Origin: a virus
Lineage: Duplodnaviria > Caudoviricetes
Reading direction: 5' to 3' (one strand)
IMG/VR virus record: IMGVR_UViG_3300020576_007701
Length of the DNA: 64,000 nucleotides
Shown: positions 25,658 through 58,084 of the stretch, in pieces
Position numbering within the stretch: the stretch's first letter is position 1
How the letters are laid out: each line of letters starts with the position of its first letter
Position numbers and translations under genes: made by a program
The notes under the pieces: generated by a model
Seen by the model: only the letters and a program-made list of their open reading frames with translations
Databases searched by the model: none
What the model was told of the DNA's origin: nothing

Positions 25658-25936
25658 ATGAATATTTTTTGTAGTGATAATATGTTAATTGGTTCAAATA
25701 CTGCAAATGATGCAAGTATAAAACATGATTTTTTAAGAGTGTCTGAATTTTATCTATTATATCCAAATACTCAAGAGGTGAGAGAAAAAATATATCGTGA
25801 ATATTTTAATTTTTTTACTAAATGGGATCTTAATGATTTACAATATAATATTGTCAAAAAAGATGATCATTGTTTGGAATTTAAACCCGTTAGAAAAATA
25901 GATGAATTGGCTATATTAGGAATATTAAACTCATAA
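25658..25936 (+). CDS. Small protein resembling the tail-sheath C-terminal domain
   Basis: VSEFYLLYPNTQEVREKI and LEFKPVRKIDE echo sheath ASLTLVFEQNDQTLRNQF and ILLKPTRTAE. Confidence 0.45.
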   Translation: MNIFCSDNMLIGSNTANDASIKHDFLRVSEFYLLYPNTQEVREKIYREYFNFFTKWDLNDLQYNIVKKDDHCLEFKPVRKIDELAILGILNS

Positions 25937-25939
25937 AAA

Positions 25940-26473
25940 ATGCAAACTTGTAAAGAAGAATTAAAATCAACTGTTAGAGATGTAGCAGACTTTCCAAAGC
26001 CTGGAATACTGTTTAAAGACATCACACCAGTGTTAGCAAATGCTGACCTTTGTTCAAAGATTGTATATGAAATTTCTAATAGTTTATCAAATACAAAAAT
26101 TGATGCCGTAGCTGGAATAGAAAGTCGTGGATTCTTTTTTGGGTTTCTTTTGGCAAATAGACTAGGTGTACCATTTATTCCAATCAGAAAGCCTGGAAAA
26201 CTGCCTTTTAAGACGGTTTCAATTGAATATGACCTTGAGTATGGCTCATCTAAAATTGAGATGAATGCGGACGCTATTTCGACTGATATGAACGTTCTTA
26301 TTCATGATGATCTTCTTGCAACTGGTGGAACCGCTGCAGCTGCTGCAGAACTTATTAAGAGTGTTGGCGGAAATGTATCTGGCTTTTGTTTTATAATAGG
26401 CCTTAAAAATCTTGGTGGCGAAGAAAAACTCAAAAAATATTCAGATAATATTTTAAATTTTATAGAGGCATAA
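25940..26473 (+). CDS. apt: Adenine phosphoribosyltransferase
   Basis: DFPKPGILFKDITP, IESRGF, RKPGKLP, YDLEYG, HDDLLATGGT PRPP loop. Confidence 0.95.
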   Translation: MQTCKEELKSTVRDVADFPKPGILFKDITPVLANADLCSKIVYEISNSLSNTKIDAVAGIESRGFFFGFLLANRLGVPFIPIRKPGKLPFKTVSIEYDLEYGSSKIEMNADAISTDMNVLIHDDLLATGGTAAAAAELIKSVGGNVSGFCFIIGLKNLGGEEKLKKYSDNILNFIEA

Positions 26474-26730
26474 TGGAAAAATTTGAAATAAATGAAGAAG
26501 GCATTATTGATGTAAAAAGATTTTATTTTCCTTTAATAATTAATTTGAAATGTCCTCATTGCCAAAGTGAAGTTACAAGAGATTTTTCTGATCACTATCT
26601 TTCTTACCCAAAATTAAATAAAAAAATAACAGAAGGTTTTTATTGTAAATCTTGTGATAAAGAATTCGAAGCAGATATGTTTTTACGTATCTCCATAGAT
26701 GTAGACTCTGATAATCTTAGAAAAATATAG
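26473..26730 (+). CDS. Small Zn-ribbon protein
   Basis: CPHC ... CKSC. Confidence 0.65.
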   Translation: MEKFEINEEGIIDVKRFYFPLIINLKCPHCQSEVTRDFSDHYLSYPKLNKKITEGFYCKSCDKEFEADMFLRISIDVDSDNLRKI

Positions 26731-26733
26731 AAC

Positions 26734-26770
26734 AAAAAAAAGGGCTCCTTTTTTGAGGGAGCCCTTTTTT
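26734..26770. terminator. Bidirectional terminator between apt operon and MCP
   Basis: A-run GGGCTCC...GGAGCCC T-run between convergent genes. Confidence 0.8.
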
Positions 26771-26792
26771 GGTAGGTTATCTACACTTATGA

Positions 26793-28451
26793 TTAGTAAG
26801 TGTTGATGTTGTCGATGTAAATAACACCGTAGAATCTGTTGTTAACCATTTTCTTAGCGTAACGAGTCATGATACCTTTTCTTGGTGTGAAATCGTTAGC
26901 GTCGTAGATAGTTTGAGTCAACTGAAGAGGAATATAAGGTGCATAGATGTAACCAGCCTCAAGGAAAGTATTTCCTTTGTGACCAACTAACACGATTGGA
27001 GCAGGCAAATAAGGGTCTTTGTAAACCACATATCTTGAACCTAAGTTACCAATTTTTTCTACACCTAAGTTGTATTTCTCTGACTCAGGTTGAGCTGAAC
27101 CATCAACGTGGAAGTATTCCAAGTCGTCGAAGATTGCTCCAGCCTCAGCTGAACATACAACCCAGTTAGCACCACCTCTAAGGGTTGCTTTGTGGATTTG
27201 AGCTGAAATCTCATTGATTCTTGTAATCAATGTTTGGTTCCAGTCTTTTTGAGTTCCAAAGAAGTTTGCGTTATTTGACAAACCTTTGTAATCCCATCTT
27301 GCTCTGAATGGAGCACCGTTGATAAGGTCGATTAAGATTTCTCTGTCGATCTCAGCTGCGATGTGCTCTGACAATAAAGCTGTTAATTCAGCTTCAGCGT
27401 CAATAGAGTGATAAGCTTCTAAATCTTGAGCTAATTCTGGAGTCCAGTGTGCTCTTAATTTTCTAGTAACAGTGTTAACAGTTACAGAAGAGAATCTGAT
27501 AGTGATCTCACCCATTTCTGATCTTGCTTCAAGGTCGTTGTAAACCTCGTATGCTGGCCAGATAGTTAAAGTGTAAGAGTTACCAAAAGTACCAGCACCG
27601 TTATTTAACATAAGAGGGTTGAAGTCAGTACCGTAGATACCATTTACACGAAGGTCAAGAACTGCGTCTAATTCGTTATTATCGAATTGGTCGTTAGTCC
27701 AAGTTTGAACTTGTGAGTAGAAAGGAATTCTACCACCTGCAGCAACTACTAATACGTTACCTGTTGCAGCTGAATAATAAATTGCAGTTACAGCAGACAA
27801 TCTAAGAGAAGCTGATGATTGTTGTTTAGAGATATTGAAACCTGCACCTAAAGTAAAGGTCTTGTTGAAGATACCACCTGTGAAAGATGACATAACAACA
27901 GTTGCAGAAGAACCTACTGCAGTCTCACCTGTACCAAATGATAAGTCGAAACCTCTATTGTTATAGAATCTTTCGTAAGCACTTGTAGATGCGAATGTAG
28001 GACCTGCTTGTCCGTTTGCTTGGTTATAAGGAGACTTCTTAGAGTAAGAAGTGTTTCCAGAGTTATCTGGATAGCTTGGATACGCTGGAGTAGCTTGAGT
28101 AGAATCAACACCGTTGAAAGATACTCTTGCATCCATGTAAAACAATAAACCTGAAGGTAAAGCCAAAGGCTGTACAGACACGATTTCGTTAGCTAATAAT
28201 CTAGAGAATACTCTTCTCACGATTGGGAACGCTACAGTATCAAATCTACCAGCAGCTGCGTCAAGAGTTACCTCATTTAACATAGACTGAGCTTGACTTT
28301 CTAAAAGTTGCGCAATGTTTGATTTTTTGATACCACGTAGGCCTTCAAGTAATCCTGAATCTCTCCAGTTGTTCACGATAGCATTTCTTTGCTCTGCTAA
28401 CGATTTGAAAACGGTTAGACCCACTTTTCCGCTATTTAATAATTCACCCAT
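26793..28451 (-). CDS. Major capsid protein, T4 gp23-like
   Basis: VSVQP...GLLFY, TRKLRAHWTPELAQDLEAYH, EIDREI, AGYIYAPYIPL, PRKGIMTRYA; probable cleavage site LNE at residue 60. Confidence 0.97.
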   Translation of the reverse strand: MGELLNSGKVGLTVFKSLAEQRNAIVNNWRDSGLLEGLRGIKKSNIAQLLESQAQSMLNEVTLDAAAGRFDTVAFPIVRRVFSRLLANEIVSVQPLALPSGLLFYMDARVSFNGVDSTQATPAYPSYPDNSGNTSYSKKSPYNQANGQAGPTFASTSAYERFYNNRGFDLSFGTGETAVGSSATVVMSSFTGGIFNKTFTLGAGFNISKQQSSASLRLSAVTAIYYSAATGNVLVVAAGGRIPFYSQVQTWTNDQFDNNELDAVLDLRVNGIYGTDFNPLMLNNGAGTFGNSYTLTIWPAYEVYNDLEARSEMGEITIRFSSVTVNTVTRKLRAHWTPELAQDLEAYHSIDAEAELTALLSEHIAAEIDREILIDLINGAPFRARWDYKGLSNNANFFGTQKDWNQTLITRINEISAQIHKATLRGGANWVVCSAEAGAIFDDLEYFHVDGSAQPESEKYNLGVEKIGNLGSRYVVYKDPYLPAPIVLVGHKGNTFLEAGYIYAPYIPLQLTQTIYDANDFTPRKGIMTRYAKKMVNNRFYGVIYIDNINTY

Positions 28452-30014: not shown

Positions 30015-30683
30015 TTATATATTTTTCCAAAAATCTTTGTTAGATAATTGAAAAAGCTTTGTATAATGTTCGTAATCTTCTTTTAATTCTGATGTTGCTG
30101 GAATTACAATTTTCTTTGCAGCCTCATTAAATGGGACCATTCCACGTTTTAATTTTTCGTTACCCTCTTTAAATAAATAAGCGCCAGGTGTTGAAGGAGA
30201 TGAAACAAAATCAAATGCAATTAATTCAAAATCTTCTTGAACAATATCAGCTCCTTGAACAGATTTTACAGAACCCACTCCTCTAGAAGAAATTCCAAGA
30301 GTAAAACCAGCTTTTAATAAACCTTTAAGTTTTTTACCAGCTTCAACATCTTCTGCTACTAAAACTCTACCATAAAGATCTTTACCTTCCCACCACATAT
30401 CAATAACACGGTGTGAAACATTTGCTAAAGAAACAACTGCATTATCTGGGTGATCTAATTCACCTCCCGCAGTATTACTTTCAACAAGTTCCATGTATTT
30501 ATCAACTTCACGTTTCAAAATTGAATAAGGATATATTCTACCATTTCTATTTTCCGTGTCTGCTTTTTGAAGAATACCAGTCATCATAAGAGGTTTTCCA
30601 AGCTGTTCTGCTTCTTTAATAAGTTTAGTATTTGTTTTAAACTCAAAGAATTCTGAAATTATATACTTAGGATCGTTTAACAT
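30015..30683 (-). CDS. Prohead core protease, T4 gp21-like
   Basis: NRNGRIYP, GELDHP, VSH, GISSRGVGS, DFVSSPSTPGA. Confidence 0.95.
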   Translation of the reverse strand: MLNDPKYIISEFFEFKTNTKLIKEAEQLGKPLMMTGILQKADTENRNGRIYPYSILKREVDKYMELVESNTAGGELDHPDNAVVSLANVSHRVIDMWWEGKDLYGRVLVAEDVEAGKKLKGLLKAGFTLGISSRGVGSVKSVQGADIVQEDFELIAFDFVSSPSTPGAYLFKEGNEKLKRGMVPFNEAAKKIVIPATSELKEDYEHYTKLFQLSNKDFWKNI

Positions 30684-37588: not shown

Positions 37589-37645
37589 AATTATTCCCTT
37601 TGTCCTACATCTAAATAGTCTTAAAAATGTAAAACAATTCATCCA

Positions 37646-37706: not shown

Positions 37707-38309
37707 TTATTCTATCTTTTCTGCTATTATAGTGAATTCGCATTTGCCCCACTTTCCTGTCATTTTATCAAAAACACCTGTGTTGTTTAAAAAAGATGGG
37801 TTAAAATCTTCTCCATATATTCCAGGAACTCTTAAGTCAATTACTAATTTTTTTTCTAGAACAGAACTGTGTATTTCACCCCAAGATTTTATTTGAGAAA
37901 AATACGGGATTATTCCACCACGAGGTATTATTTTTTTGTCTCTATAAAATATATCGGTATCAGTCACTAAATTAAAAATATCAAATGGAGTGTCTATAAT
38001 TAATTCACAAATACCACTTTTAAAAGAATGTGAAGAATCTACTATCACTGTAGTTCCTTTCTTTTTTTGTTCAGATATTTCTCCAGTAGTCGGATGTTCA
38101 ATTATCTTCGAATCTAAGAGATAAGTTTCAAGCGATGGAGTAATTGTTCGAAAATAGGTGTCAGAACCAGAAGGTTTAAATTCTATCGGACCTGTTCCTA
38201 AAAAAATTTGTTTTAAACCTTCTTGAATAAGGTGTTTTTCTATGCCGCTAACAGCATTTTTGTCAGATAAGGCAGCACGTAGCTCCTCCTTGTTGATTTT
38301 GTAATTCAT
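37707..38309 (-). CDS. Stand-alone paralogue of the MCP insertion domain
   Basis: GGIIPYFSQIKSW and DLRVPGIYGEDFNPSFLNN vs MCP GGRIPFYSQVQTW and DLRVNGIYGTDFNPLMLNN. Confidence 0.8.
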   Translation of the reverse strand: MNYKINKEELRAALSDKNAVSGIEKHLIQEGLKQIFLGTGPIEFKPSGSDTYFRTITPSLETYLLDSKIIEHPTTGEISEQKKKGTTVIVDSSHSFKSGICELIIDTPFDIFNLVTDTDIFYRDKKIIPRGGIIPYFSQIKSWGEIHSSVLEKKLVIDLRVPGIYGEDFNPSFLNNTGVFDKMTGKWGKCEFTIIAEKIE

Positions 38310-38374
38310 TGTTTTTCATTTTTTAATTTAACTTCCATGTGGTTGATCCACATAGTTCTGTATTTGTGTATAGA

Positions 38375-38405
38375 AAAATATATACAAATCAAATCAAAAA
38401 ACAAA
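38375..38405 (-). promoter_or_regulatory. Possible host-type promoter for MCP insertion-domain paralogue
   Basis: TTTG-N19-TATATTTT on minus strand. Confidence 0.4.
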
Positions 38406-43275: not shown

Positions 43276-43307
43276 TTTGATTTTTCGCTTTTATTAAGAT
43301 ATTTTTT
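43276..43307 (+). promoter_or_regulatory. Possible host-type promoter for trx operon
   Basis: TTTG-N20-TATTTTTT. Confidence 0.4.
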
Positions 43308-43661: not shown

Positions 43662-44296
43662 TAAATGCAGTTGTCTTTGGAGATGGTCGGCATGGCCTTT
43701 TTTCAGAAAGTTTAGAAAAAAATGCAAATGGCGCTTTTAAATGTGTTGAAGTAAAAGATTCATCTACATTCAAGGAAGATGTGTTAAAAGCTTTATCTAG
43801 TGAACTTGAATATACTGCTCTTTTTACAAAAGACAACATTTTGTTTAATCAAATTAATGAGGAAGATATTACAAACACATTGTCTGATGAAGATATTATT
43901 TGTTTTTCATTAAGACTTGGAGAAAATATTACATATTGTAGCACTCTTGAAATGGTGAACAATTTACACGGGCAAGAACATTTTGACAGCATTATGAAGT
44001 GGGACTGGTCTAAACATTATTTAGATTTTGGCTTTCCATTATCTATAAATGGCCATATATTTAGAACTAAAGAATTAACGAAATTAATAAAAAAAGTAAA
44101 TTTTACAAATGCTTTAAGCTTAGAAGAAGGTCTTCAAATGTTTGAATTTCTACCAAGAGAAAAAATGGCTTCTTATATAACAAGCGTTTTAATAAGCGCC
44201 AATGTTTCAACACCAGAGTCGCCGATATTAGAAGAACTAGATTTTTCAAACATAAAAAGCGTAGAACAAATCATAAAAAATAAAAATAATGTATAA
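43658..44296 (+). CDS. Hypothetical, possibly degenerate GT-A-like protein
   Basis: FSLRLG, DFGFPLSINGHIFR; start of glycan island. Confidence 0.4.
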   Translation: MINAVVFGDGRHGLFSESLEKNANGAFKCVEVKDSSTFKEDVLKALSSELEYTALFTKDNILFNQINEEDITNTLSDEDIICFSLRLGENITYCSTLEMVNNLHGQEHFDSIMKWDWSKHYLDFGFPLSINGHIFRTKELTKLIKKVNFTNALSLEEGLQMFEFLPREKMASYITSVLISANVSTPESPILEELDFSNIKSVEQIIKNKNNV

Positions 44297-44870
44297 TTTA
44301 GAAAAAATGTCAAAAAGAGTTCGCCACCTACTTGGTGAGCCAACATATTGTGTAGAACTAACAGATGAATCTATGGAATCATTAATCCAACTTGCAATAA
44401 ACAAATGGAAAATGTTTTCTTCTTTGCACAAAATTAGTACTAAACAAGTAAAGGAAATAGAATATTTTTGGGTAGAATCATATTTTCAAGCTTTATGTAA
44501 AGAATCTCTTGGTATGATACGTGGAAAATTTGACGGCATACAAATACCTGGATCGGTTTTAAAACTTAATTATAAAGATCTTATTTCTAGTTCAGAAATT
44601 GAAAAGAAAAATTTAGAAGAAATGCTCAACACAAACATTGAAAAAACAATTTTAGCCCTATATGTTAATGTTGAAAATTTGAAATACGACGAAATAAACG
44701 AATATATGTCTAAAATTATCAAATCAATTAAAGACCCAAAATTAAAATGTTTCGCTATTGCCACAAAAGGGGAGCCTTCAAGAATAGAATGTTTGTTTCC
44801 AAATTTCACTCCAAGCAAAGAAGTTCAAGAGGCATTAAATAATAAATTGTTATCAATTTTAAAACCATAA
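44289..44870 (+). CDS. Miniature paralogue of neck protein gp13
   Basis: RVRHLLGEP..VELTDE and WV..ALCKESLGMIRGKFDG..IPG..LN match both ends of 22686-23873, central region missing. Confidence 0.8.
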   Translation: MYNLEKMSKRVRHLLGEPTYCVELTDESMESLIQLAINKWKMFSSLHKISTKQVKEIEYFWVESYFQALCKESLGMIRGKFDGIQIPGSVLKLNYKDLISSSEIEKKNLEEMLNTNIEKTILALYVNVENLKYDEINEYMSKIIKSIKDPKLKCFAIATKGEPSRIECLFPNFTPSKEVQEALNNKLLSILKP

Positions 44871-48277: not shown

Positions 48278-48278
48278 T

Positions 48279-49052: not shown

Positions 49053-49947
49053 AAATATGAGTCAAATAATTGATGTTTTAAATAATAATATTTTTAGTTA
49101 TAAGGAAATTTTTGAAAATTCTGAAATCAAACTTTTAAATAACGATGAATTTGATATTAACTTCATCATTGGATTTAGAGGTAGAAAAGAGTTTTTAATT
49201 CCAATGATAAATGCATTTAATAAAGCTGCGGATTTTTATAAAAATAAATTTCCAAATGAAAATAAAAAGTTTTGCTTAACACTTGTTGAACATAGTTTAA
49301 CGCCAGAAAATAAAGAAATTATAGGAGATAAAGCGAACTATATTTGGACACCAGGTAATAAATCTGAACAGTATAGTAGAAGTTTTTCTTATAACTTTGG
49401 CGTAAAATACTCTAATAAAGCAAAGTATTACATTTTACACGATTTAGATATTCTTATTAAGGAAAATTTTTTTGAGGAAATTTATTTAAATTTAAAATCC
49501 GAGTGTCTTCAAACATATGGCAAAAGAAGAGTTTTATATATGTCTCAAGAGTTGACAAATTCTGTTTTATCTGGCGATGTTGATTTTAACACTTTTGACG
49601 AAAATTATCCTAATATAAATCCACCACAAATACTTGGATCAAAAGGTGGTTCAATTTTGGTTGGACACGATTTGTATTATGAGGTTGGAGGTTTTGATCC
49701 AGAAATATTTTGGGGATATGCGCCAGAAGATCAACTTTTTTGGGATAAAGTACAGACAATTTTAGGTGAAATAGATTATGCTGACAATCCGCCAATTGAT
49801 ATTTTTCATATGTGGCACCCGCCTACACTACATCATTCAAACGCTGATTATTTTCCAATGGAAAAATGCTTTTATGAATTTAGGGCAATGAATAAAAAAG
49901 CCAGAATGAATTTTATAAATTTAAAAAAAGAACTCTTCAAAGATTGA
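49045..49947 (+). CDS. GT-A glycosyltransferase with GT7-like C-terminus
   Basis: HDLD (DxD), GGFDPEIFWGYAPED, HMWH. Confidence 0.8.
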   Translation: MLKNMSQIIDVLNNNIFSYKEIFENSEIKLLNNDEFDINFIIGFRGRKEFLIPMINAFNKAADFYKNKFPNENKKFCLTLVEHSLTPENKEIIGDKANYIWTPGNKSEQYSRSFSYNFGVKYSNKAKYYILHDLDILIKENFFEEIYLNLKSECLQTYGKRRVLYMSQELTNSVLSGDVDFNTFDENYPNINPPQILGSKGGSILVGHDLYYEVGGFDPEIFWGYAPEDQLFWDKVQTILGEIDYADNPPIDIFHMWHPPTLHHSNADYFPMEKCFYEFRAMNKKARMNFINLKKELFKD

Positions 49948-50216
49948 TTATGAGAACACTTAGAAAATATGTAGATATAGATATTAGAGAAACTGTAAAT
50001 GTTGGAATAGAACTTGATTTCAATGAATTAGTTCAAATAATACAACAATGCACTGATAAAGAAAAAGATGAAATTTTACTTGAATTAAAGGGCGGCGGAG
50101 TAATACCAGAAATTCATGGTAGAACAAGGGTTACTTTATTAGATCAAATGAAAATAGATTTTTTCAGAGAAAATTTTAATAAAATTTCAATCGACCAACT
50201 TCAAACACTTGTGTAA
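49944..50216 (+). CDS. Hypothetical protein
   Basis: ~90-aa ORF coupled to both neighbours. Confidence 0.55.
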   Translation: MIMRTLRKYVDIDIRETVNVGIELDFNELVQIIQQCTDKEKDEILLELKGGGVIPEIHGRTRVTLLDQMKIDFFRENFNKISIDQLQTLV

Positions 50217-51103
50217 TGAAAACTAAGACATTTATATTTACAGAAGCTTATAATTGCGGACTTATTTTAAAAAAATGTTTAGAAAGTTTTTTTAAATATC
50301 ATCCAGGTATTACTGTAAACGTATTTGGAACCGCAAAAGATTTTAAAGAACTTGGAAAATTTGACGATGTTGAGTATATTGAATTAAGCGCAGATGAAGA
50401 TTTAAAAGAGTGTTTTAAGCATGGTCATTTAGGCACTGCTCACATAGGTGCAAGAGTAATTAAAGAATTTTCTAAAGATTGCAATTATATAATTCACTTT
50501 GATAGCGATATAATATTTAGAAAAGAATCTCTGTCTTTGTTAAATGAAAAAATTGAAGAGGGTTATGACCTAATTGGTTCTAGGCGTTGTTACAAAAACA
50601 ATATGAACAACCTTGTTTTAGAAGGACTTGAAGATGTTGTGCAAACTTATTTTTTTGCTTTTAATAAAAATAAAATTTATGATTATGATTTCAACACTTT
50701 AAGAAATATGATTGTTGGGTTTTTCAATCCATTGGGGCACGAAATACTTGACTATTTTGATCCTGTTTCATTTGATATTTTGAAAAATAATGGGAAAATT
50801 TATTTCCTTGACACAAATTTAGTTGGCGGTTTATCCGCTGAGGGTAACAGAAAAAACATACACGAAGAATTAAATAGTGATTTTGATTTTGGTACAAATT
50901 TGGTACATTTTGGTGGCATAGGTTCTGGTATGAAATTTTATAAGTTTGGAAATGACAGCGTTCCAGAATCTTATTCCAAGTGGGCCATAAACAGATACGG
51001 CATATATAGTAAAGTAATTTTGGGCTCTGAAAAACAAGACATAGAAATAGATGAAGTAAAAACAGAATTGTTAATCAAAGCATTTAATGAAACAAATAAT
51101 TAA
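50216..51103 (+). CDS. Putative GT-A glycosyltransferase
   Basis: IHFDSDIIF DxD motif, late VHFGG; context. Confidence 0.6.
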   Translation: MKTKTFIFTEAYNCGLILKKCLESFFKYHPGITVNVFGTAKDFKELGKFDDVEYIELSADEDLKECFKHGHLGTAHIGARVIKEFSKDCNYIIHFDSDIIFRKESLSLLNEKIEEGYDLIGSRRCYKNNMNNLVLEGLEDVVQTYFFAFNKNKIYDYDFNTLRNMIVGFFNPLGHEILDYFDPVSFDILKNNGKIYFLDTNLVGGLSAEGNRKNIHEELNSDFDFGTNLVHFGGIGSGMKFYKFGNDSVPESYSKWAINRYGIYSKVILGSEKQDIEIDEVKTELLIKAFNETNN

Positions 51104-51890
51104 TAGCTACACATACCCAGATTGGCCAAATATAGAAATTGAATTTGAAAAGTCAATAGAGTTATTTATAGATGGATTTGATGGGTACAATCCAAACAGT
51201 AATTCATATAAAATTTTACTTGTAAAAGAAGTAGAGGCTATAAGCGGCTTTAAAAGTACAGCAATTGAACATGCTTCAAAATTTGATTTAGTTTTAACTT
51301 ATGACGAGGAAATTATACAAAAATGTGACAATGCTCGTTTTTTTCCTTTCGGAACAACATGGATAAAAAATTACGATTTTTTAAAAGAAAAAAAGTTTCA
51401 AATTTCCCACTTGACTGGCCACAAACAAATTACAAATTGGCATATATTAAGACAAAAAATCCACTATAAACAAGAACTAATTGTCACACCAAGAGATTTT
51501 TATATAAGCCAATATGGCGGAGTTGAAAATGCATTTAACAATAAAATTTTAGGAGAATTTAAAGAGCCTCTTTTCGAATCACAATTCCATATTTGTATAG
51601 AAAATTCTGATCAAAAAAATTTATTTACAGAAAAAACAATAGATTGTCTTATCACAAAAACAGTTCCTATTTTTTGTGGATGTGATAATATAGGTGATTT
51701 TTTTAATGAAAAAGGTTTCATAATTGCAAAGAATGTAAATGACATTATAAAAGAGTGTAATAATTTAACGCCAAACACATATGAAACAATGATGGAGGCT
51801 ATAGATGAAAATTACAATATATGCTTGAAATATGCAGATTCAGTAGGTAATCTTAAAAATACTTTATTAGATATTTTTAAAAATAAATAA
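51087..51890 (+). CDS. GT10-like (alpha-1,3/4-fucosyltransferase family) glycosyltransferase
   Basis: FHICIENS...FTEKTIDC...TVPIFCG. Confidence 0.8.
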   Translation: MKQIINSYTYPDWPNIEIEFEKSIELFIDGFDGYNPNSNSYKILLVKEVEAISGFKSTAIEHASKFDLVLTYDEEIIQKCDNARFFPFGTTWIKNYDFLKEKKFQISHLTGHKQITNWHILRQKIHYKQELIVTPRDFYISQYGGVENAFNNKILGEFKEPLFESQFHICIENSDQKNLFTEKTIDCLITKTVPIFCGCDNIGDFFNEKGFIIAKNVNDIIKECNNLTPNTYETMMEAIDENYNICLKYADSVGNLKNTLLDIFKNK

Positions 51891-51891
51891 T

Positions 51892-52908
51892 TTATTCGTC
51901 GTATAATAATTTTACCATGCTATTAACTGTATCAAAGTTATCTGCGGTGGCTCTACTATTAGGTATTTTTACATTAAAAGTTTCTTCTAAAAAAACTAAA
52001 ACAACTACCATTGAAAAAGAATCAATATAACCACCTCTTATAAGCGATGTTTCATACGTTACATTGCTTATTCTTTTACAAGAACAATCTTCCTCTGGAA
52101 ACATGCAATAAGAATAGTGACCCTGGTTACTTCCAAAATGTTTTTTTATATAATTTAAAATTATTTTTTTTTCATTTTTTAACTTTGTTTTTGGTTGTAA
52201 AATTTTTGGTTTTACTTCTTTGTCCACTTGATCGTCTATATTTTTTATATTAATTTCATATGGGAAAAGTGTATTAAATAATTTTTTATAAAAATCGTGC
52301 CCCTTCATGGTGTTTATATAAAACTTTTGTGGGGATCTACACTTATATACATCTAAATGTTCATTTATTTTAATGTGGTTTATATCTTCCTTAGAGTCTT
52401 TGTATAGCAAATCATCTTCAGAACCCTCCTCAATGCTATTAGCGGCAACAATCTTGAAAGACAATTGTTTGTGTTTTTTCTTTAATAATTTTACCAATTT
52501 AAGAAGTCCTTTTAAAGGAATTTCTTTGTGAGTCATAAAGGTAAAAATTACATTATCCCCAGATGTATTATTTAAAAGTTTAAAAAAACGTTTAGCAATA
52601 CTTTCTTTGTATCCAGTCCATCCACACCCATCGTCACCTCTTAATACACCGTGTTCATGATGTTTGTAACCTAATTTAGCGTATGGATATTCGTCACAAT
52701 CTGGCGGATCTATTCCGTTTTTTATATTGTTTTCTATGTGCCATTCATAACCATTTTCAACTATATCACAAACAATATCTATATTGCTATTAGCCCAATC
52801 AAATATATAGCCATATCCCAAAAAATTAATACGTGCGTTGTTATTGTTTAATAATTCAGCAACAACGCAGCAATCTCCTATACTAATAATGTGGTTAACT
52901 TCTTTCAT
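51892..52908 (-). CDS. DUF1796-like papain-fold domain fused to a C-terminal acyl carrier protein
   Basis: IISIGDCCVVA...R...IFDW N-terminus; GYIDSFSM...LEETFNVKI...NFDTVNSM ACP signature. Confidence 0.7.
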   Translation of the reverse strand: MKEVNHIISIGDCCVVAELLNNNNARINFLGYGYIFDWANSNIDIVCDIVENGYEWHIENNIKNGIDPPDCDEYPYAKLGYKHHEHGVLRGDDGCGWTGYKESIAKRFFKLLNNTSGDNVIFTFMTHKEIPLKGLLKLVKLLKKKHKQLSFKIVAANSIEEGSEDDLLYKDSKEDINHIKINEHLDVYKCRSPQKFYINTMKGHDFYKKLFNTLFPYEINIKNIDDQVDKEVKPKILQPKTKLKNEKKIILNYIKKHFGSNQGHYSYCMFPEEDCSCKRISNVTYETSLIRGGYIDSFSMVVVLVFLEETFNVKIPNSRATADNFDTVNSMVKLLYDE

Positions 52909-52934
52909 TTTTTATTTATAAATATAGTTCAAAA

Positions 52935-52966
52935 TTTGGTTTTTTATAAATAAAAAATTATATTTC
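52935..52966 (+). promoter_or_regulatory. Host-type promoter
   Basis: TTTG-N20-TATATTTC. Confidence 0.5.
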
Positions 52967-52982
52967 TTCTAATAACACAGAA

Positions 52983-53789
52983 ATGGATAAAAAATATAAA
53001 GTCAACATAAAGCTTCTTGGCGGCATAGGAAACAACCTATTTCAAATAGCTTGTGCTTATGCATATTCTTTAAAACACAATTGCGAATTAGTCCTTTTTA
53101 AGGAAAAATTTGGCGCTACACATGGTTCCTTTGATTCATATTCTTCAAATGTATTGAGGAATATCAATTTTTCAGACCCAAACACTATAAAGCAATTATC
53201 TCAATACCAGGAGCCATTTTTCAATTACCAAGAAATACCAGGCTTTAATGTGGATTTGCAATTAAATGGTTATTTTCAAACAGAGCTTTATTTTAAAGAA
53301 TACTCACAAGAAATACTTGACCTGTTTTCTTATCCAGATAATTTTATAGAGTCAATAAAAAAAGAATACTCTGACCTTTTAAATCTAAACGCTTGCTCTA
53401 TGCATGTAAGACGTGGCGATTACGTTCATCAACCAGAAAATCATCCAACTCAAAGTATGAATTATTATATGAAAGCGATAAAACAAATGCCTTCAGATTC
53501 TATATTTTTAATTTTTTCAGATGATATTGAATGGTGTAAACAGAACTTCCCAGACCTTCCAGAAAAATTTTACTTTATAGAAGGCAATAAAGATTTTGAA
53601 GATTTATTTCTAATGACACAATGTAAAAATAATATTATTTGTAACTCTAGTTTTAGTTGGTGGGGAGCTTGGTTAAATAAAAACCAAGATAAAAAAATAA
53701 TTGCCCCATTATATACTAGGTGGGTAGGACAAGCTTTATCTAATTTGGACACAAAGGATGTAATTCCAAAAAACTGGATTCAACTATAA
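52983..53789 (+). CDS. GT11 alpha-1,2-fucosyl/colitosyl-transferase
   Basis: GGIGNNLFQ, GYFQ, HVRRGDY, FSDDIEWC, NSSFSWWGAWL. Confidence 0.92.
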   Translation: MDKKYKVNIKLLGGIGNNLFQIACAYAYSLKHNCELVLFKEKFGATHGSFDSYSSNVLRNINFSDPNTIKQLSQYQEPFFNYQEIPGFNVDLQLNGYFQTELYFKEYSQEILDLFSYPDNFIESIKKEYSDLLNLNACSMHVRRGDYVHQPENHPTQSMNYYMKAIKQMPSDSIFLIFSDDIEWCKQNFPDLPEKFYFIEGNKDFEDLFLMTQCKNNIICNSSFSWWGAWLNKNQDKKIIAPLYTRWVGQALSNLDTKDVIPKNWIQL

Positions 53790-53799
53790 TAAAAAAAAT

Positions 53800-54717
53800 A
53801 TGAAATATAAAAAAATATTAATAACTGGCGGATCTGGAATGGTTGGTATGTCTTTGAAAAAAATAATCCCAGAAGCTGTATATATTTCTTCCCAAGATTA
53901 CAATTTAACTTCAGAAATAGAAGTTGAAAAAATGATGAATGAAATAAAACCAGACTGCATAATACATTTGGCAGCAAAAGTTGGCGGCATATTTGATAAC
54001 ATGCAAAAGCCAGCAGAGTATTATACAGAAAATGTTTTAATGAACACAATATTGGTTGACAAGGCTTATAAACATGGCGTTAAAAGACTTATAGCGATGT
54101 TAAGCACATGTATATACCCAGACAAAAATGAAACTTATCCGCTTGTAGAAGGTGACTTACATAAAGGGCCGCCAGCTGAAACTAACTTTTCTTATGGTTA
54201 CGCCAAGAGATCTCTAGCTGTTCAAATCGACTCATACAACAAACAATATGGAACAAAATATCAATATTTAACGCCATGTAATTTATATGGAGAATTTGAT
54301 AAATATGGATCTAATAGCCACTTTATAGCTGCACTTATAAAGAAAATACATGTTTCTGTAAAAAATGGAGATGACAAAATAGTGTTATTTGGAGATGGAA
54401 CTCCACTAAGACAGTTTATGTATTCAGACGATTTAGCTTTTGTAATAAAAGAGTGTTTGGACAAGAACATTTATGAAAATATGAATGTTGCCACTGAAGA
54501 AATTTATAATATAAAACAAATGGCCTTAATCGCTCTTGAGGCTTGCCAGGCTGAAAATTTAACCATACATTTTGATACTAACTCTCCAAATGGACAATTT
54601 AGAAAAGATGTGTCGGTGTCAAAACTAAAAAAAATAATACCCCACTTCAATCCTATAAATTTAAGTGACGGCATAAAAAAAACATACAAATATCTTTTAG
54701 ATAACAATAAGTTATGA
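53800..54717 (+). CDS. GDP-L-fucose synthase family (Fcl/ColC-type epimerase-reductase)
   Basis: TGGSGMVG, HLAAKVGG, LSTCIYP, YGYAK, PCNLYG, GDGTPLRQF. Confidence 0.9.
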   Translation: MKYKKILITGGSGMVGMSLKKIIPEAVYISSQDYNLTSEIEVEKMMNEIKPDCIIHLAAKVGGIFDNMQKPAEYYTENVLMNTILVDKAYKHGVKRLIAMLSTCIYPDKNETYPLVEGDLHKGPPAETNFSYGYAKRSLAVQIDSYNKQYGTKYQYLTPCNLYGEFDKYGSNSHFIAALIKKIHVSVKNGDDKIVLFGDGTPLRQFMYSDDLAFVIKECLDKNIYENMNVATEEIYNIKQMALIALEACQAENLTIHFDTNSPNGQFRKDVSVSKLKKIIPHFNPINLSDGIKKTYKYLLDNNKL

Positions 54718-56165
54718 AATTTCATAAACAAGAATTTTTATACGACAAAGAAAAAGGCGTAAGAGGTAGTTGTTTTCCAACTGTTCTAGCTTGTATATTA
54801 GATTTGGAACTTGGGCAGGTCCCAAATTTTCAACTATCTTATTGGACACATGAGGAAGAGCAAAATATAATTAAATGTTTATTGCTTAGATATTGTAATG
54901 GTTCTTATGAAAACGCTAAAAAATACCAACAAGACAACTTTGATAATCACAAATCTCTTATGCATAATCAGTGGGCTAATACTATGGATTTTTGGCTGGC
55001 ATCAAAAGGTTACGTTGAAGAATATATTCTTTTAGAAGAAATTGAAGAATGGGTTAAAAAAAACCCAGAAACCCCATATCTAGTAAAGGGTGATTCCAGT
55101 AGAGGTGTCGGTCATGTTGTAATATACAAAAATGGAAAAATGATACACGATCCACACCCATCTAATGAAGGCCTTGTTTCATTAAGAGAAGAACCATACT
55201 CGTATTTAAAAAAAATAACAAATATAAAATATGTCAATTCTCACATAGATGAATTTAATTATATTTTTTCCTCTAATATTGATGCTAATTTAATGAAGCA
55301 AAAAAACGAAATGTCATTTTTATACACATCAACTTTTAGTGAATTTGATATTATGTTTAACGAGTATGACAAAATATTTGTAAAAAAAATAAATTTTATT
55401 TCAGGTATGGGTGTCATAGATTCTATTGCTCAAGATAGAAGCATTGAACAAAAAATGAATAAAGATGGCGCAAAAAAAGCGTCGCTTTTAAATGATATCG
55501 AATTTGTAACAGATCAGGAAATTAACGATCTTAGAGGTAGTCAACATGTATATAAATACACATTTTCAAATAGCGCTAAATTGCTAAAGGAAGGTAAATT
55601 AAAATTCATTAACCCTAAATACAAAGACTATAAAGCAAACGAACTTCTTTTATCTAGTTTGAATACAAAAAATAAAAAAGTAGTTGCAATTAATGGGCGT
55701 AATTTAATTAAGATTCCAGAACGAAACCAAACGTTTCAACCATTAATAGACCACTTGATTAAAGAGGGTTTTTTTGTTGTAAATCTTACTATTAACCCTC
55801 CTGGTTTTAACTATCCAAAAGATTCCTATTACGAGATAACAAATCCAAGTTTAAGTTATAGCGATATGGTGTCTTTTTTTCTATTGTCTGAAACAGTTTT
55901 ATCTGTATGTGATTCGGGTGGAGTTAATGTTCATATTTTAACAGAGGCTAATTTTATATTTCTTGGCCCTGGCGGATGGCTAGATAATCCAGAGTTTGGT
56001 CATGAAGGTACAAGTCTTTTATCTGCGAGAAAAGAAAATACAAATTTCTATACTGAACATTTATTAAATTTTTCACTTGATGAGTTGGTAAATAAAATTA
56101 AACAAATTCCAGGTCGTAATAGACATTCATATTTTTTTAATGAAAACAAGATTGAATTTATATAA
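54714..56165 (+). CDS. Two-domain protein: Cys/His/Asp peptidase-like N-terminus + GT9-like C-terminus
   Basis: GSCFPTVLA...GHVVIY...HDPHP; C-terminal SVCDSGG..H. Confidence 0.45.
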   Translation: MKFHKQEFLYDKEKGVRGSCFPTVLACILDLELGQVPNFQLSYWTHEEEQNIIKCLLLRYCNGSYENAKKYQQDNFDNHKSLMHNQWANTMDFWLASKGYVEEYILLEEIEEWVKKNPETPYLVKGDSSRGVGHVVIYKNGKMIHDPHPSNEGLVSLREEPYSYLKKITNIKYVNSHIDEFNYIFSSNIDANLMKQKNEMSFLYTSTFSEFDIMFNEYDKIFVKKINFISGMGVIDSIAQDRSIEQKMNKDGAKKASLLNDIEFVTDQEINDLRGSQHVYKYTFSNSAKLLKEGKLKFINPKYKDYKANELLLSSLNTKNKKVVAINGRNLIKIPERNQTFQPLIDHLIKEGFFVVNLTINPPGFNYPKDSYYEITNPSLSYSDMVSFFLLSETVLSVCDSGGVNVHILTEANFIFLGPGGWLDNPEFGHEGTSLLSARKENTNFYTEHLLNFSLDELVNKIKQIPGRNRHSYFFNENKIEFI

Positions 56166-56215
56166 TTTACTTTATTTTGCTGTTAGCTATGATTATGTTT
56201 AAAAAAAACATATTC

Positions 56216-57409
56216 ATGGCAACAAACTTAAAAAATAAACGTGAGCGTATAACTCTTGTAAAAGACACAATAGACAAAAAAGATATTGACCATTTAATTA
56301 ATTGGTTAAAAACATACCCAAAACTTACAAAGGGCGAAAAAACAATTGAGTTTGAACAAGCTTGGTCAAAGTGGATTGGATGTAAATACTCAGTGTTTGT
56401 AAACTCAGGTTCTTCCGCAAATCTTTTAATGCTCTATGCATTAATAGAGCTTTATAAATTAAGAAATGGAAAGGTTGTTGTTCCATCTCTGGCTTGGGCC
56501 ACTGATTTAGCACCAGTGATTCAACTCGGTTTTCAACCACTTATTGTTGATTGCAATTTAGCGGACTTATCTGTTGACTTAGAACATTTGGAATATATTT
56601 TTATGAACGAACAACCTTCGGCAATGATTTTAGTTTCAGTTCTTGGTTTATCTCCAGATATGGATTCTGTTGTAAAACTTTGTAAAAAATATGGCGTTAT
56701 TTTACTTGAAGATAATTGTGAATCTCAAGGAACAATGTATAAAGGAAAAAAACTTGGAAATTTTGGCCTTATGTCTAGTTATTCAACATATTTTGGGCAT
56801 ACAATGAGCACAATTGAGGGCGGCATGATTTCAACAAATGATAGAGAAGTATACAATATGTTAAAACAACTTAGAAGTCATGGTTGGGATAGAGATTTAG
56901 ATGCCACAAGACAAGCTGAATTGAGAGAACAATGGGGTATAGATGACTTCGCAGCTTTGTACACTTTTTATGTGCCTGGTTTTAATGTTAGATCTACAGA
57001 TTTGCAAGCTGTAATAGGTTTAAAACAGCTTGAAAAAGTTGACGATATGATTGCTCAAAGAAATAAAAACTTTGAAATTTTTAAACAAAGGTTATCACCT
57101 TACACATGGTTCCCAACTGAGCAAGAAGAAAGTTTTACTGCAAGTTTTTGTATTCCAATAATAGCTGAAACAAAAGAAGAAAAAGATAGAATAGTAAAAA
57201 AATTAATAGAAAACAATGTTGAGTGTAGACCTTTAATATGTGGTTCAATGGGAACTCAACCATTTTTTGTAAAACATTTTGGTAGAGTTGCTTTAGAAAC
57301 AGTTACAAGAGTTGATGAGTGTGGTATGTATATTCCAAATCATCCACACCTTACAAAAGAAGAAATAGATCATATGTGTAATTGCATACTTAGCGCAATA
57401 GAAGAATAA
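56216..57409 (+). CDS. colD: DegT/DnrJ-fold PLP enzyme, ColD-type GDP-4-keto-6-deoxymannose 3-dehydratase
   Basis: VNSGSSANL, LLEDNCES, YFGHTMSTIEGG with His at the usual Schiff-base Lys position; start reassigned to ATG 56216. Confidence 0.75.
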   Translation: MATNLKNKRERITLVKDTIDKKDIDHLINWLKTYPKLTKGEKTIEFEQAWSKWIGCKYSVFVNSGSSANLLMLYALIELYKLRNGKVVVPSLAWATDLAPVIQLGFQPLIVDCNLADLSVDLEHLEYIFMNEQPSAMILVSVLGLSPDMDSVVKLCKKYGVILLEDNCESQGTMYKGKKLGNFGLMSSYSTYFGHTMSTIEGGMISTNDREVYNMLKQLRSHGWDRDLDATRQAELREQWGIDDFAALYTFYVPGFNVRSTDLQAVIGLKQLEKVDDMIAQRNKNFEIFKQRLSPYTWFPTEQEESFTASFCIPIIAETKEEKDRIVKKLIENNVECRPLICGSMGTQPFFVKHFGRVALETVTRVDECGMYIPNHPHLTKEEIDHMCNCILSAIEE

Positions 57410-57410
57410 T

Positions 57411-57647
57411 ATGAAGATAAATAAAATCGAAACATATCAAGATTTGCCTAAATATGGTAAATATGTGCTTGTAAGCGGAATCGACAAAGGAATGTATGAT
57501 GTTAGAAGGTGGCACGTTTGCGAAATGAATGACTTAGAAGATGGGTTAGATTATAGAGATAAAGGCCATTTTTTTTGGCTTACTGAAAAAGGAACTAAAA
57601 TAGACGAAGTTACACATTGGTGTGAATTACCAAATATACCACAGTAA
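57411..57647 (+). CDS. DUF551-like small phage protein
   Basis: LP...VLV N-terminus, VTHWCELP C-terminus. Confidence 0.6.
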   Translation: MKINKIETYQDLPKYGKYVLVSGIDKGMYDVRRWHVCEMNDLEDGLDYRDKGHFFWLTEKGTKIDEVTHWCELPNIPQ

Positions 57648-57658
57648 AACTATACAAA

Positions 57659-58084
57659 ATGTTAACTATAAAAGAGTGGCTTTTAAAAAATAATCCAACT
57701 TTTAAAATAGATTGGAATATATTGGGTTGGCAAAACAATCCAAATTTTTTCGGAGATCAAAAAGAATGGAACAATGTGCTTCTCACAAAAATTAACGAAA
57801 TTTCAGCACATATACATATGGCCACATTATTAGGCGGTGCTGACACAATAGAAGTGCACCCAGATAATATGCATTTCATAGAAAGTTTTGACTACTATAA
57901 TGCAACAACAAAAACTATAGGGTTTAGATATTCCGTAATTGTAGATAATCTTATTTCTAAAAATACAATCAATGTGTATTTAAGTGAACAAGCTATAAGA
58001 AATTTTTATAAATTAAATAAAAAAGGGTTAGATATAGATTTTAAAAATACTTATGGGGTTATTACATTAATAAATGGAAATTAA
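57659..58084 (+). CDS. Stand-alone paralogue of the MCP A-domain region
   Basis: NNPNFFGDQKEWNNVLLTKINEISAHIHMATLLGGA vs MCP NNANFFGTQKDWNQTLITRINEISAQIHKATLRGGA (26/36 identical by hand count). Confidence 0.88.
   Translation: MLTIKEWLLKNNPTFKIDWNILGWQNNPNFFGDQKEWNNVLLTKINEISAHIHMATLLGGADTIEVHPDNMHFIESFDYYNATTKTIGFRYSVIVDNLISKNTINVYLSEQAIRNFYKLNKKGLDIDFKNTYGVITLINGN

What the first reader, a model, noticed from the sequence alone, without database searches (positions are those of the whole stretch)
25658..58084. A dispersed set of miniature copies of the phage's own virion proteins: candidate decoy/interference system
Seen: four small intact ORFs outside the late transcription units each resemble a single piece of a structural protein in this window: MCP insertion domain (37707-38309), MCP A-domain region (57659-58084), neck gp13 core (44289-44870) and, more weakly, sheath C-terminus (25658-25936). 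None has the TATTTAT motif that precedes the late virion units; all lie behind host-type TTTG-N19/20-TAnnTTT promoters. Known: several bacterial defences are triggered by virion proteins (CapRel and Lit by MCP, DSR2 by tail tube, Avs by portal/terminase). Inference: these are early-expressed, assembly-incompetent mimics that pre-occupy host pattern sensors, poison assembly of co-infecting relatives, or chaperone assembly. I know of no description of such a multi-component set.
Basis: partly seen in the sequence, partly recalled or inferred. Interest (0 to 1): 0.9.

Follow-up and report, generated by a model that had tools for sequence, protein, structure and literature searches.

The report
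Free-standing mini-copies of phage virion proteins
An uncultured T4-like phage carries three small, intact, fast-evolving genes, each encoding one piece of its own head-shell or neck protein; they belong to a large undescribed family of such "mini" genes whose job is untested, possibly imitating unassembled virion subunits.

Summary
Three of the four claimed resemblances are real; the fourth is not. ORF 57659-58084 (141 aa) is the axial (A) domain of the phage's gp23-type capsid protein. ORF 37707-38309 (200 aa) joins a conserved 75-aa N-domain to a copy of the capsid protein's variable insertion region. ORF 44289-44870 (193 aa) is the helix-bundle core of neck protein gp13 without its swing domain. 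ORF 25658-25936 shows no similarity to the sheath.

The three real ones are not decaying duplicates. Each has full-length small homologues at the same syntenic site in related uncultured phages. Approximate dN/dS is 0.24-0.53, against 0.01-0.19 for neighbouring genes. Each is the most divergent gene of its neighbourhood.

They are not one system: relatives carry none or any of several subsets of them. An exhaustive profile search found 496 cluster representatives, most of the best 150 being small A-domain-only proteins, so this is a large uncharacterised family. This scan has noted similar genes in other phage lineages.

Function is untested. I favour soluble mimics of unassembled subunits. 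A 2026 paper shows bacterial Avs sensors bind exactly the capsid A-domain face and the portal adaptor, which makes a decoy role plausible but unproven. Assembly modulation is the main rival.

The parts
57659..58084 (+). mini-MCP-S: 141-aa free-standing A-domain paralogue of the gp23-type capsid protein (equivalent to MCP 376-552 with two deletions, including the C-terminal YGVI.I.N motif)
   Evidence: blastp E 4e-17. hhalign 99.6% to MCP 376-550. AF2 pLDDT 87, pTM 0.82. T4 gp23 residues 302-521 at Z 12.6, rmsd 3.0, 126 residues aligned. Five full-length homologues of 133-141 aa, at the same site after DegT in L117, L118 and L119.
37707..38309 (-). mini-MCP-L variant: 200 aa. It has a conserved N-domain (aa 1-75, nt 38085-38309) and a C-half (about aa 118-200) that copies MCP 230-303, the end of the variable insertion region. 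It lacks the A-like half found in its orthologues.
   Evidence: blastp E 1e-11 to MCP 235-289. The N-domain is 56-81% identical to P0008-P0018 (221-251 aa), which sit at the same site between the 90-aa gene and GT1 in L121-L123. P0083 and P0121 have the same N-domain plus insertion-like build. AF2: N-domain pLDDT 84-94, C-half 30-50.
44289..44870 (+). mini-gp13: 193 aa. It has the helix-bundle core of neck protein gp13 (N-terminal and C-terminal helices), no swing domain, and its own C-terminal region of about 45-75 aa.
   Evidence: blastp E 1e-12 to gp13-like residues 15-70 and 288-381. phrog_211 at 9e-12. Precomputed PF26809 Phage_T4_gp13. The family profile hits T4 gp13 (PDB 9mkb, 9lu4) at E 2e-8, aligning to gp13 residues 10-46 and 242-297. 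Syntenic homologues in G001, G003 and L124.
26793..28451 (-). parent gene: gp23-type major capsid protein, 552 aa
   Evidence: Pfam PF07068 at 7e-73. 92% identical in the closest relative L001.
22686..23873 (-). parent gene: gp13-like neck protein / portal adaptor, 395 aa
   Evidence: phrog_211 at 4e-12. 88% identical in G001.
38374..38405 (-). host-type promoter-like site (TTTG ... TAnnTTT) in front of the 200-aa gene. It follows a hairpin-plus-T-run terminator-like site at 38420-38448. A second such site lies at about 37650-37690, just behind the gene.
   Evidence: read from the sequence; motif match only
43276..43306 (+). host-type promoter-like site at the head of the thioredoxin / 212-aa / mini-gp13 / glycosyltransferase unit
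   Evidence: The mini-gp13 start overlaps the preceding gene by 8 nt.

Best explanation
SHOWN. The window is part of a 153-kb uncultured T4-like myophage whose nearest cultured relatives infect Flavobacterium. Three separate accessory genes arose by partial duplication of virion genes and have been kept as independent small genes. One is the capsid A-domain alone. One is a conserved N-domain fused to a copy of the capsid insertion region. One is the gp13 helix-bundle core alone. Each lacks the parts needed to join a shell (N-arm, E-loop, P-domain) or to clasp the portal (swing domain). Each sits at a fixed site in related phages, is present in some and absent in others, is under purifying selection, and changes several times faster than its neighbours and more than ten times faster than its parent.

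INFERRED. They are made as soluble proteins from host-type (early or middle) transcription units. They work by imitating the unassembled subunit, occupying whatever binds the free A-domain face or the free adaptor core. The partner I favour is a host immune sensor of the Avs type. Such sensors are now known to wrap the capsomer-forming face of the MCP A-domain and to sense the portal adaptor. A truncated mimic could bind such a sensor without supplying the further contacts that trigger it, so it would act as a sponge.
For: Origin and truncation.

Real genes. Full-length small homologues exist at identical syntenic sites. dN/dS for mini-MCP-L orthologues is 0.26-0.30 against 0.01-0.19 for 12 neighbouring genes. 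For mini-MCP-S it is 0.24-0.31 and for mini-gp13 0.41-0.53, against flanks of 0.05-0.13.

Conflict-gene signature. Presence is patchy: G001 has only mini-gp13; the L117/L124 contig has mini-gp13 and mini-MCP-S but no mini-MCP-L; L121-L123 have mini-MCP-L but no mini-gp13. Each mini is the most divergent gene of its neighbourhood (46% against 62-84%; 59% against 62-91%; 82% against 95-100%). Tree branches are 0.2-1.9 for the minis against 0.01-0.2 for the MCP C-terminal thirds.

Not late genes by motif. In more distant phages the minis lie in arrays of small early-type ORFs.

Breadth: 496 cluster representatives, and 112 of 142 new top hits are small, start with M, and are under 60% identical to reference MCPs.

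[quoted passage not shown] The two parent proteins with minis here are both on that list.
Against: There is no functional data of any kind. Expression time is inferred from motifs only.

The same paper says Avs sensors recognise the conserved core fold and leave extensions unbound. A core-only mimic might therefore trigger the sensor rather than block it.

No host, and so no host sensor, is known for this phage. No known anti-defence family matches, and PADLOC (a defence-system library) gave nothing.

The C-half of the 200-aa protein could not be folded with confidence.

Fast evolution with dN/dS of 0.3-0.5 also fits simple low constraint.

One larger relative (P0049, 329 aa) lies beside a baseplate gene, hinting at a structural role in some lineages.
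Confidence: 0.38

Rival explanations
1. Assembly modulators. The minis bind the phage's own, or a co-infecting relative's, MCP or neck subunits through the retained subunit-subunit faces. This would delay premature capsomer or neck-ring formation, help folding, or poison a rival's assembly.
For: The retained pieces are the ones that make subunit contacts: the A-domain forms the capsomer centre, and the gp13 helix bundle forms the ring core and channel (PMC12929587). There is precedent for a capsid-protein homologue that redirects assembly, SaPIbov5 Ccm (PMC8569155). DnaJ lies three genes from the mini in two distant (mutually syntenic) phages.
Against: The minis are dispensable: the closest relative G001 (MCP 92% identical) lacks both MCP minis. 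The MCP C-terminal third is almost invariant across the clade, so a poison aimed at relatives would also hit the phage's own MCP. A partner for so conserved a face would not be expected to evolve this fast.
Confidence: 0.25
2. Ordinary minor virion or prohead components: decoration, vertex or core proteins built from recycled capsid modules.
For: P0049 (A-like plus insertion-like, 329 aa) lies next to a T4_baseplate gene. T4 gp24 shows that MCP paralogues can be structural.
Against: No TATTTAT motif precedes them. They are absent from close relatives with nearly identical capsid genes. They lack the N-arm, E-loop and P-domain. They lie among early-type or metabolic genes.
Confidence: 0.12
3. 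Partners of the neighbouring sugar enzymes: adaptors that bring glycosyltransferases to MCP or gp13, or surrogate acceptors for virion glycosylation.
For: In this window all three lie next to sugar genes: GT1 35461-36810, GT2 44872-45615, and DegT 56177-57409 with gmd 58972-60000. The same adjacency holds in L117-L124.
Against: G001 keeps GT1, DegT and gmd at 82-88% identity without the MCP minis. Distant family members lie in regions with no sugar genes. Sugar genes fill much of 44.8-61.6 kb, so adjacency is partly expected by chance.
Confidence: 0.08
4. Neutral relics: decaying partial duplicates, or capsid-gene scraps carried along by the homing endonucleases that flank two of them.
For: Endonuclease genes lie directly downstream of both MCP minis, at 36803-37642 and 58148-58984. 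The minis are missing in G001.
Against: Relatives hold the minis at the same sites with no endonuclease, and G002 holds the endonuclease without a mini, so the endonucleases are later insertions. Open frames of 141-200 codons in 30% GC DNA, dN/dS well below 1, and more than 100 diverged clusters all exclude decay.
Confidence: 0.03

Closest known systems
T4 gp23 major capsid protein and its paralogue gp24 (vertex protein), HK97 fold, Pfam PF07068
   Same: Clear homology. The 141-aa model superposes on T4 gp23 residues 302-521 (Z 12.6) and on gp24 (1yue, Z 7.8). Like gp24, the minis are duplicates of the capsid gene kept in the same genome.
   Different: gp24 is a full-length shell subunit. The minis keep only the A-domain or the insertion region, cannot form shell contacts, are dispensable, evolve fast, and lie outside the late units.
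T4 gp13 neck protein / portal adaptor (PF26809; PDB 9mkb, 9lu4)
   Same: The mini-gp13 family profile matches gp13 residues 10-46 and 242-297 (E 2e-8). These fall at the two ends of gp13, where the helix bundle (alpha1, alpha2, alpha5, alpha6) described in PMC12929587 should lie; the mapping of residues to helices is my inference.
   Different: The swing domain that embraces the portal and capsid is missing. The C-terminus differs from the arm that inserts into the portal clip. The mini is an additional gene beside an intact gp13.
SaPIbov5 Ccm, a satellite-encoded homologue of the helper phage capsid protein that redirects capsid assembly (PMC8569155)
   Same: It is a capsid-protein homologue used for something other than building the element's own standard shell. 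It sets a precedent for interference by mimicry.
   Different: Ccm is a complete HK97-fold protein that co-assembles into capsids and is encoded by a satellite. The minis are single domains encoded by the phage itself.
Targets of Avs-type STAND sensors (Avs7/8/10: MCP A-domain face; Avs12: portal adaptor; PMC13581612)
   Same: The protein pieces kept in the minis are the pieces these sensors are reported to bind.
   Different: This is the host side of a possible interaction, not a homologue. No phage-encoded trigger-derived inhibitor is described in that paper, nor in the 2026 review of countermeasures (PMC13728456).
Free-standing capsid A-domain mini-genes noted by this scan in other phages (e1-5405164, e1-5370518, e1-5346559, e1-5625412, e1-5652070)
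   Same: Same design: a small selected gene encoding only the A-domain of the phage's own type of capsid protein, dispensable, with function untested.
   Different: Those derive from other MCP families (Lu11/PaBG-type, phage G-type, lambda gpE-type). This case is gp23-type, adds a neck-protein mini, and shows modular forms (N-domain plus A; N-domain plus insertion region). Those notes are unchecked by me.

Membership tests
gp23-type major capsid protein (PF07068, HK97 fold) | Sequence homology to gp23 | tested here: met
   For the 141-aa and 200-aa ORFs: blastp E 4e-17 and 1e-11 to the phage's own MCP. hhalign probabilities 99.6% and 99.8% for the two small families against an MCP alignment.
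gp23-type major capsid protein (PF07068, HK97 fold) | Reaches Pfam PF07068 as a whole protein | tested here: not met
   Neither window protein hits any Pfam family at E <= 0.01. Some orthologues carry only a weak precomputed PF07068 hit.
gp23-type major capsid protein (PF07068, HK97 fold) | Complete HK97 fold (N-arm, E-loop, P-domain, A-domain) able to form capsomers | tested here: not met
   The 141-aa protein covers only MCP 376-552 with deletions, equivalent to T4 gp23 302-521. The 200-aa protein covers only MCP about 230-303.
gp23-type major capsid protein (PF07068, HK97 fold) | A-domain fold | tested here: met
   AF2 pLDDT 87, pTM 0.82. Foldseek top hits are T4 gp23 at probability 1.0. 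VIA Z 12.6, rmsd 3.0, 126 residues aligned. The alignment used for folding included MCP rows, which leans the model towards this fold.
T4 gp13 neck protein (PF26809) | Match to the family model and to solved gp13 | tested here: met
   Precomputed PF26809 on the window protein (P0019) and on P0020-P0022. Profile against PDB 9mkb/9lu4 at E 2e-8. phrog_211 at 9e-12.
T4 gp13 neck protein (PF26809) | Swing domain between the N- and C-terminal helices (T4 residues about 47-241) | tested here: not met
   The alignment jumps from gp13 residue 46 to 242, and in the phage's own gp13 from 70 to 288.
T4 gp13 neck protein (PF26809) | C-terminal arm that inserts into the portal clip | tested here: inconclusive
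   The match to T4 gp13 ends at residue 297 of 309. The mini then continues with about 75 aa of its own. No structure was predicted for it.
Phage tail sheath C-terminal domain (PF17482), claimed for ORF 25658-25936 | Any detectable similarity to the sheath | tested here: not met
   Score 31 against a shuffle mean of 31.7. No Pfam, PHROG or BLAST hit.
Phage anti-defence decoy / sponge (functional class) | Accessory-gene signature: patchy presence, fixed site, fast change under selection | tested here: met
Phage anti-defence decoy / sponge (functional class) | Early expression | tested here: inconclusive
   Only motif evidence: host-type promoter-like sites and absence of TATTTAT.
Phage anti-defence decoy / sponge (functional class) | Binds and blocks a host sensor | not testable with these tools
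   Host and its defence genes are unknown. Needs co-expression or pull-down.
Assembly-redirecting capsid homologues (SaPIbov5 Ccm type) | Full capsid-protein fold that co-assembles with the helper MCP | tested here: not met
   Single domains only.

The most novel reading that the evidence does not exclude
Phages of many lineages keep cut-down copies of exactly those virion-protein surfaces that bacterial pattern receptors read (MCP A-domain face, portal-adaptor core). They express these copies ahead of the real proteins as non-activating sponges for the sensors. This would be a general, trigger-derived class of anti-immunity protein, with this phage carrying three independent examples.
Probability: 0.3. 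Interest if true: 0.85.

Novelty: new variant of a known kind. Interest (0 to 1): 0.62.

Why it matters
Bacterial immune sensors that read conserved virion folds have just been catalogued, but no phage answer based on imitating the trigger is known.

A large, diverse, selected family of free-standing A-domain proteins, plus a neck-core mini, is an obvious candidate for such an answer. It is easy to test by co-expression with Avs7/8/10/12-type sensors.

If the minis instead tune or sabotage capsid and neck assembly, they would be natural dominant-negative tools for studying HK97-fold assembly. Either way, more than a hundred sequence clusters now left as 'hypothetical protein' would gain a defined origin and a testable role.

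Tried and rejected
(1) Homing-endonuclease passenger idea. Both MCP minis lie just upstream of endonuclease genes and are missing in G001. I rejected it because relatives hold the minis at the same sites without endonucleases, and G002 holds the endonuclease without a mini.

(2) Glycosylation-adaptor idea. Weakened by G001 (sugar genes present, minis absent) and by distant minis in regions without sugar genes.

(3) Complex prediction of the 141-aa protein with MCP 300-552: no verdict (score 0.00, controls not run). This is not evidence either way.

(4) The search for related loci in IMG/VR with each small ORF: pattern hits but no confirmed relative. Relatives were reached through the MCP instead.

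(5) Cultured phage collection. The small ORFs and two distant family members either found nothing (P0119) or hit places annotated as parent genes or unannotated uncultured records; no cultured phage showed a gp23-type mini.

(6) ESM Atlas look-alikes for the 141-aa protein and for the N-domain: nothing usable.

(7) Fold of the 200-aa protein. The C-half had pLDDT 30-50, so its likeness to the parent insertion domain rests on sequence only. The N-domain (pLDDT 84-94) found no structural match above Z 3.8 among 48,161 chains.

(8) PADLOC models: no hit for the minis.

(10) Literature. Searches for decoy capsid proteins, gp23 paralogues and free A-domain homologues found no description of such genes.
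Full report
WHAT THE WINDOW IS. The window is the first 64 kb of a single 152,940-bp virus contig with about 31% GC. It encodes a gp23-type major capsid protein (MCP, 26793-28451, minus strand; Pfam PF07068 at 7e-73) and a tail sheath (17518-19902). It also encodes a prohead protease (30015-30683) and a gp13-like neck protein (22686-23873, phrog_211). The nearest cultured phages are the Flavobacterium phages vB_FspM_immuto, with MCP 44% identical. Closer uncultured relatives exist in IMG/VR, with MCP 92%, 85%, 79%, 77% and 74% identical (L001/G001, L010/G004, G002, G003, G005).

CHECK OF THE OBSERVATION. An all-against-all comparison of the window's proteins, and tblastn over the whole genome, reproduce three of the four claimed resemblances.
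- The 141-aa ORF 57659-58084 matches MCP 376-448 at 44% identity (E 4e-17).
- The 200-aa ORF 37707-38309 matches MCP 235-289 at 47% identity (E 1e-11).
- The 193-aa ORF 44289-44870 matches the gp13-like protein twice: its residues 1-49 to 15-70, and 44-147 to 288-381. It is gp13 without its middle.

Local alignment scores are 171, 128 and 143, against about 34 +/- 5 for shuffled queries.

The fourth member fails. The 92-aa ORF 25658-25936 scores 31 against the sheath, where shuffles average 31.7, and it has no family hit.

A whole-genome all-against-all search found only ten paralogous pairs. Exactly these three pair a small ORF with part of a virion protein. There are no portal, terminase or tube fragments.

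A FALSE LEAD. Both MCP-like ORFs lie directly upstream of free-standing homing endonuclease genes: 36803-37642 (NUMOD3 plus REase_MTES_1575) and 58148-58984 (LAGLIDADG). In the closest relative G001 the flanking genes abut, with neither the small ORF nor the endonuclease between them. This suggested capsid scraps dragged along by mobile endonucleases. The wider searches refuted it.

THE 141-AA PROTEIN. It has five full-length small homologues (133-141 aa, 44-60% identical). In three contigs the gene sits at the same place, right after the DegT aminotransferase, with no endonuclease nearby.

THE 200-AA PROTEIN. It shares its first 75 residues (56-81% identity) with a family of 221-251-aa proteins. 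In three contigs these occupy the same syntenic slot, between a 90-aa gene and the GT1 glycosyltransferase, again without an endonuclease. G002 has the endonuclease at that slot but no small gene. The endonucleases are therefore later insertions next to pre-existing genes.

WHAT THE MCP-DERIVED PROTEINS ARE. Profile-profile comparison aligns the 141-aa family to MCP 376-550 (99.6% probability). This includes the C-terminal YGVI.I.N motif, with two deletions. The 221-251-aa family aligns to MCP about 253-523 (99.8%).

A structure prediction of the 141-aa protein is confident (pLDDT 87, pTM 0.82). It superposes on T4 gp23 residues 302-521 (Z 12.6, rmsd 3.0 A, 126 residues). It also superposes, less well, on other HK97-fold capsids and encapsulins. 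The alignment used for folding included MCP rows, which favours that outcome, but the sequence homology stands independently.

The window's 200-aa protein is a variant. It keeps the family's N-domain, but its C-half copies MCP 230-303 (the end of the variable insertion region) instead of the A-domain. Two other cluster representatives (P0083, P0121) have the same build. A fourth form (P0049) joins an A-like and an insertion-like piece.

The N-domain folds confidently (pLDDT 84-94) but matches no solved structure. The C-half did not fold with the shallow alignment available.

In a maximum-likelihood tree the two small families are each monophyletic (99/97 and 100/99). They sit on branches of 0.2-1.9 substitutions per site, while the MCP C-terminal thirds differ by 0.01-0.2.

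WHAT THE NECK-DERIVED PROTEIN IS. The 193-aa protein carries a precomputed PF26809 (Phage_T4_gp13) hit. A profile of its six known members matches solved T4 gp13 at E 2e-8, over gp13 residues 10-46 and 242-297.

According to the 2026 T4 neck structures, gp13 consists of a four-helix bundle (alpha1, alpha2, alpha5, alpha6) and a swing domain. The bundle forms the ring core and DNA channel. The swing domain flips up to embrace portal and capsid. A C-terminal arm enters the portal clip (PMC12929587).

By my reading of the matched residues, the mini keeps the bundle, lacks the swing domain, and ends in a region of its own. It lies at the same site (thioredoxin, a 212-aa protein, the mini, then GT2) in G001, G003 and the L124 contig.

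ARE THEY LIVE GENES? Yes.
- Frames of 141-200 codons are open in 30% GC DNA.
- Nei-Gojobori estimates (approximate where dS is saturated) give dN/dS of 0.26-0.30 for the mini-MCP-L orthologues, the highest of 13 genes compared; the other 12 give 0.01-0.19.
- dN/dS is 0.24-0.31 for mini-MCP-S and 0.41-0.53 for mini-gp13, with flanks at 0.05-0.13.
- Each mini is the most divergent protein of its neighbourhood: 46% against 62-84%, 59% against 62-91%, and 82% against 95-100%.

NOT ONE SYSTEM. Presence is patchy and independent.
- G001 has only mini-gp13.
- The SRR30276808 contig (L117/L124) has mini-gp13 and mini-MCP-S but no mini-MCP-L.
- L121-L123 have mini-MCP-L but no mini-gp13.
- G002 shows none in the parts recovered.

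These are three independent accessory genes, each with its own slot.

HOW BROAD IS THE FAMILY? An exhaustive profile search of 1.84 billion cluster representatives found 496 hits at E <= 1e-3 and 153 at E <= 1e-10. Of the 142 new proteins among the best 150, 119 are at most 300 aa. Of those, 112 start with M and are under 60% identical to any reference MCP, with a median length of 169 aa and a median identity of 38%. Every context I inspected showed a complete gene inside a contig.

In more distant phages the minis lie in arrays of small early-type ORFs with no sugar genes. No phage in the cultured collection carries one. This scan has recorded comparable free-standing A-domain genes derived from other capsid families in other phages. 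I did not check those notes.

EXPRESSION. The word TATTTAT lies 12-39 nt upstream of MCP, scaffold, protease and about twenty other genes. It is absent before the minis. The 200-aa gene stands alone between two hairpin-plus-T-run sites, behind a TTTG...TAnnTTT site. The other two are internal to units headed by such sites. This is motif evidence only. Expression data could not be obtained.

HOW THEY MAY WORK. What is shown is origin, truncation, selection, speed of change and dispensability. The mechanism is inference.

The retained pieces are the ones a free, unassembled subunit exposes and uses for contacts. [quoted passage not shown] It also reports that Avs12 senses the portal adaptor (PMC13581612). 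Both parents that have minis here are therefore known immune triggers. The accessory, fast-changing, patchy pattern is what conflict genes usually show. I therefore rank a sensor-sponge role first (about 0.38).

The chief objection comes from the same paper: the sensors read the core fold. A core-only mimic must bind without triggering, and that is unproven.

The rivals, in order:
- Assembly modulation or sabotage (0.25). It fits the retained interfaces and the Ccm precedent (PMC8569155). It fits poorly with dispensability, and with fast change against an almost invariant MCP face.
- Minor structural roles (0.12).
- A link to the neighbouring sugar enzymes (0.08). G001 keeps the enzymes without the minis.
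- Neutral relics (0.03), which the data contradict.

A co-folding test of the 141-aa protein with the MCP C-terminal half gave no verdict.

VERDICT. The 'system' framing and the sheath member fall. The decoy reading is plausible and now has a concrete, testable target class, but no evidence yet separates it from assembly-related roles.

Noticed in passing
window 36803-37642 (-), 58148-58984 (+), 61643-62782 (-), 16157-17392 (-): There are four free-standing homing-endonuclease-type genes: NUMOD3 plus REase_MTES_1575; LAGLIDADG; HNH/treble-clef; and a homing-endonuclease PHROG. Two are inserted immediately downstream of the MCP minis. G002 has a 48%-identical copy of the first at the same site but no mini. 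G001 lacks both.
   Followed up: partly
window 25658-25936 (+) and 43658-44296 (+): The 92-aa ORF wrongly linked to the sheath shows a weak likeness to the 212-aa protein encoded just upstream of mini-gp13. The local score is 58 against 30.9 +/- 5.6 for shuffles, with 0 of 300 shuffles as high. ORFs 25658-26730 are absent from G001.
   Followed up: partly
window 44872-61650 (+): A long sugar-nucleotide / glycosyltransferase region. It holds two GT2 paralogues, an 869-aa protein, homologues of GT10/GT11 genes, an epimerase, DegT aminotransferase plus GDP-mannose 4,6-dehydratase (a perosamine-type pair), and a 521-aa protein. It is conserved in relatives with extra methyltransferases or a carbamoyltransferase. 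Its target (virion, DNA or host surface) is unknown.
   Followed up: no
window 57411-57647 (+): A 78-aa DUF551-like ORF lies between DegT and the 141-aa mini. It is absent at this site in L117, L118 and G001, so it is a separate small insertion.
   Followed up: no
window 349-6267 (-) and 10288-14628 (-); 7360-8802 (-) and 8806-10251 (-): Two giant proteins (1972 and 1446 aa) share many 54-71% identical repeat blocks. Between them lie two tandem 480-aa paralogues, 53% identical. These are probably fibre or surface proteins.
   Followed up: no
L010 (G004) 10001-11648: The MCP gene of this 85%-identical relative changes frame near residue 204-207; the open frame is only 348 aa. This is either an assembly error or an interrupted capsid gene.
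   Followed up: no
window 20027-20746 (-) and 20772-21716 (-): Neighbouring genes share a 21-residue stretch: residues 1-21 of the first match residues 26-46 of the second at 76% identity (E 2e-6). G001 has only the first gene in full.
   Followed up: no
P0051, P0114, P0151; L129 212-928 and 7001-7717: The conserved N-domain of the mini-MCP-L family also occurs without any recognisable MCP-derived region, or as very short proteins (71-167 aa). One distant contig (L129) lists two 238-aa ORFs, one of which is the N-domain plus insertion-like protein P0121.
   Followed up: no
L131 2061-3050: P0049 (329 aa) carries the A-like piece before the insertion-like piece, the reverse of their order in MCP. 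It lies next to a T4_baseplate-family gene.
   Followed up: no
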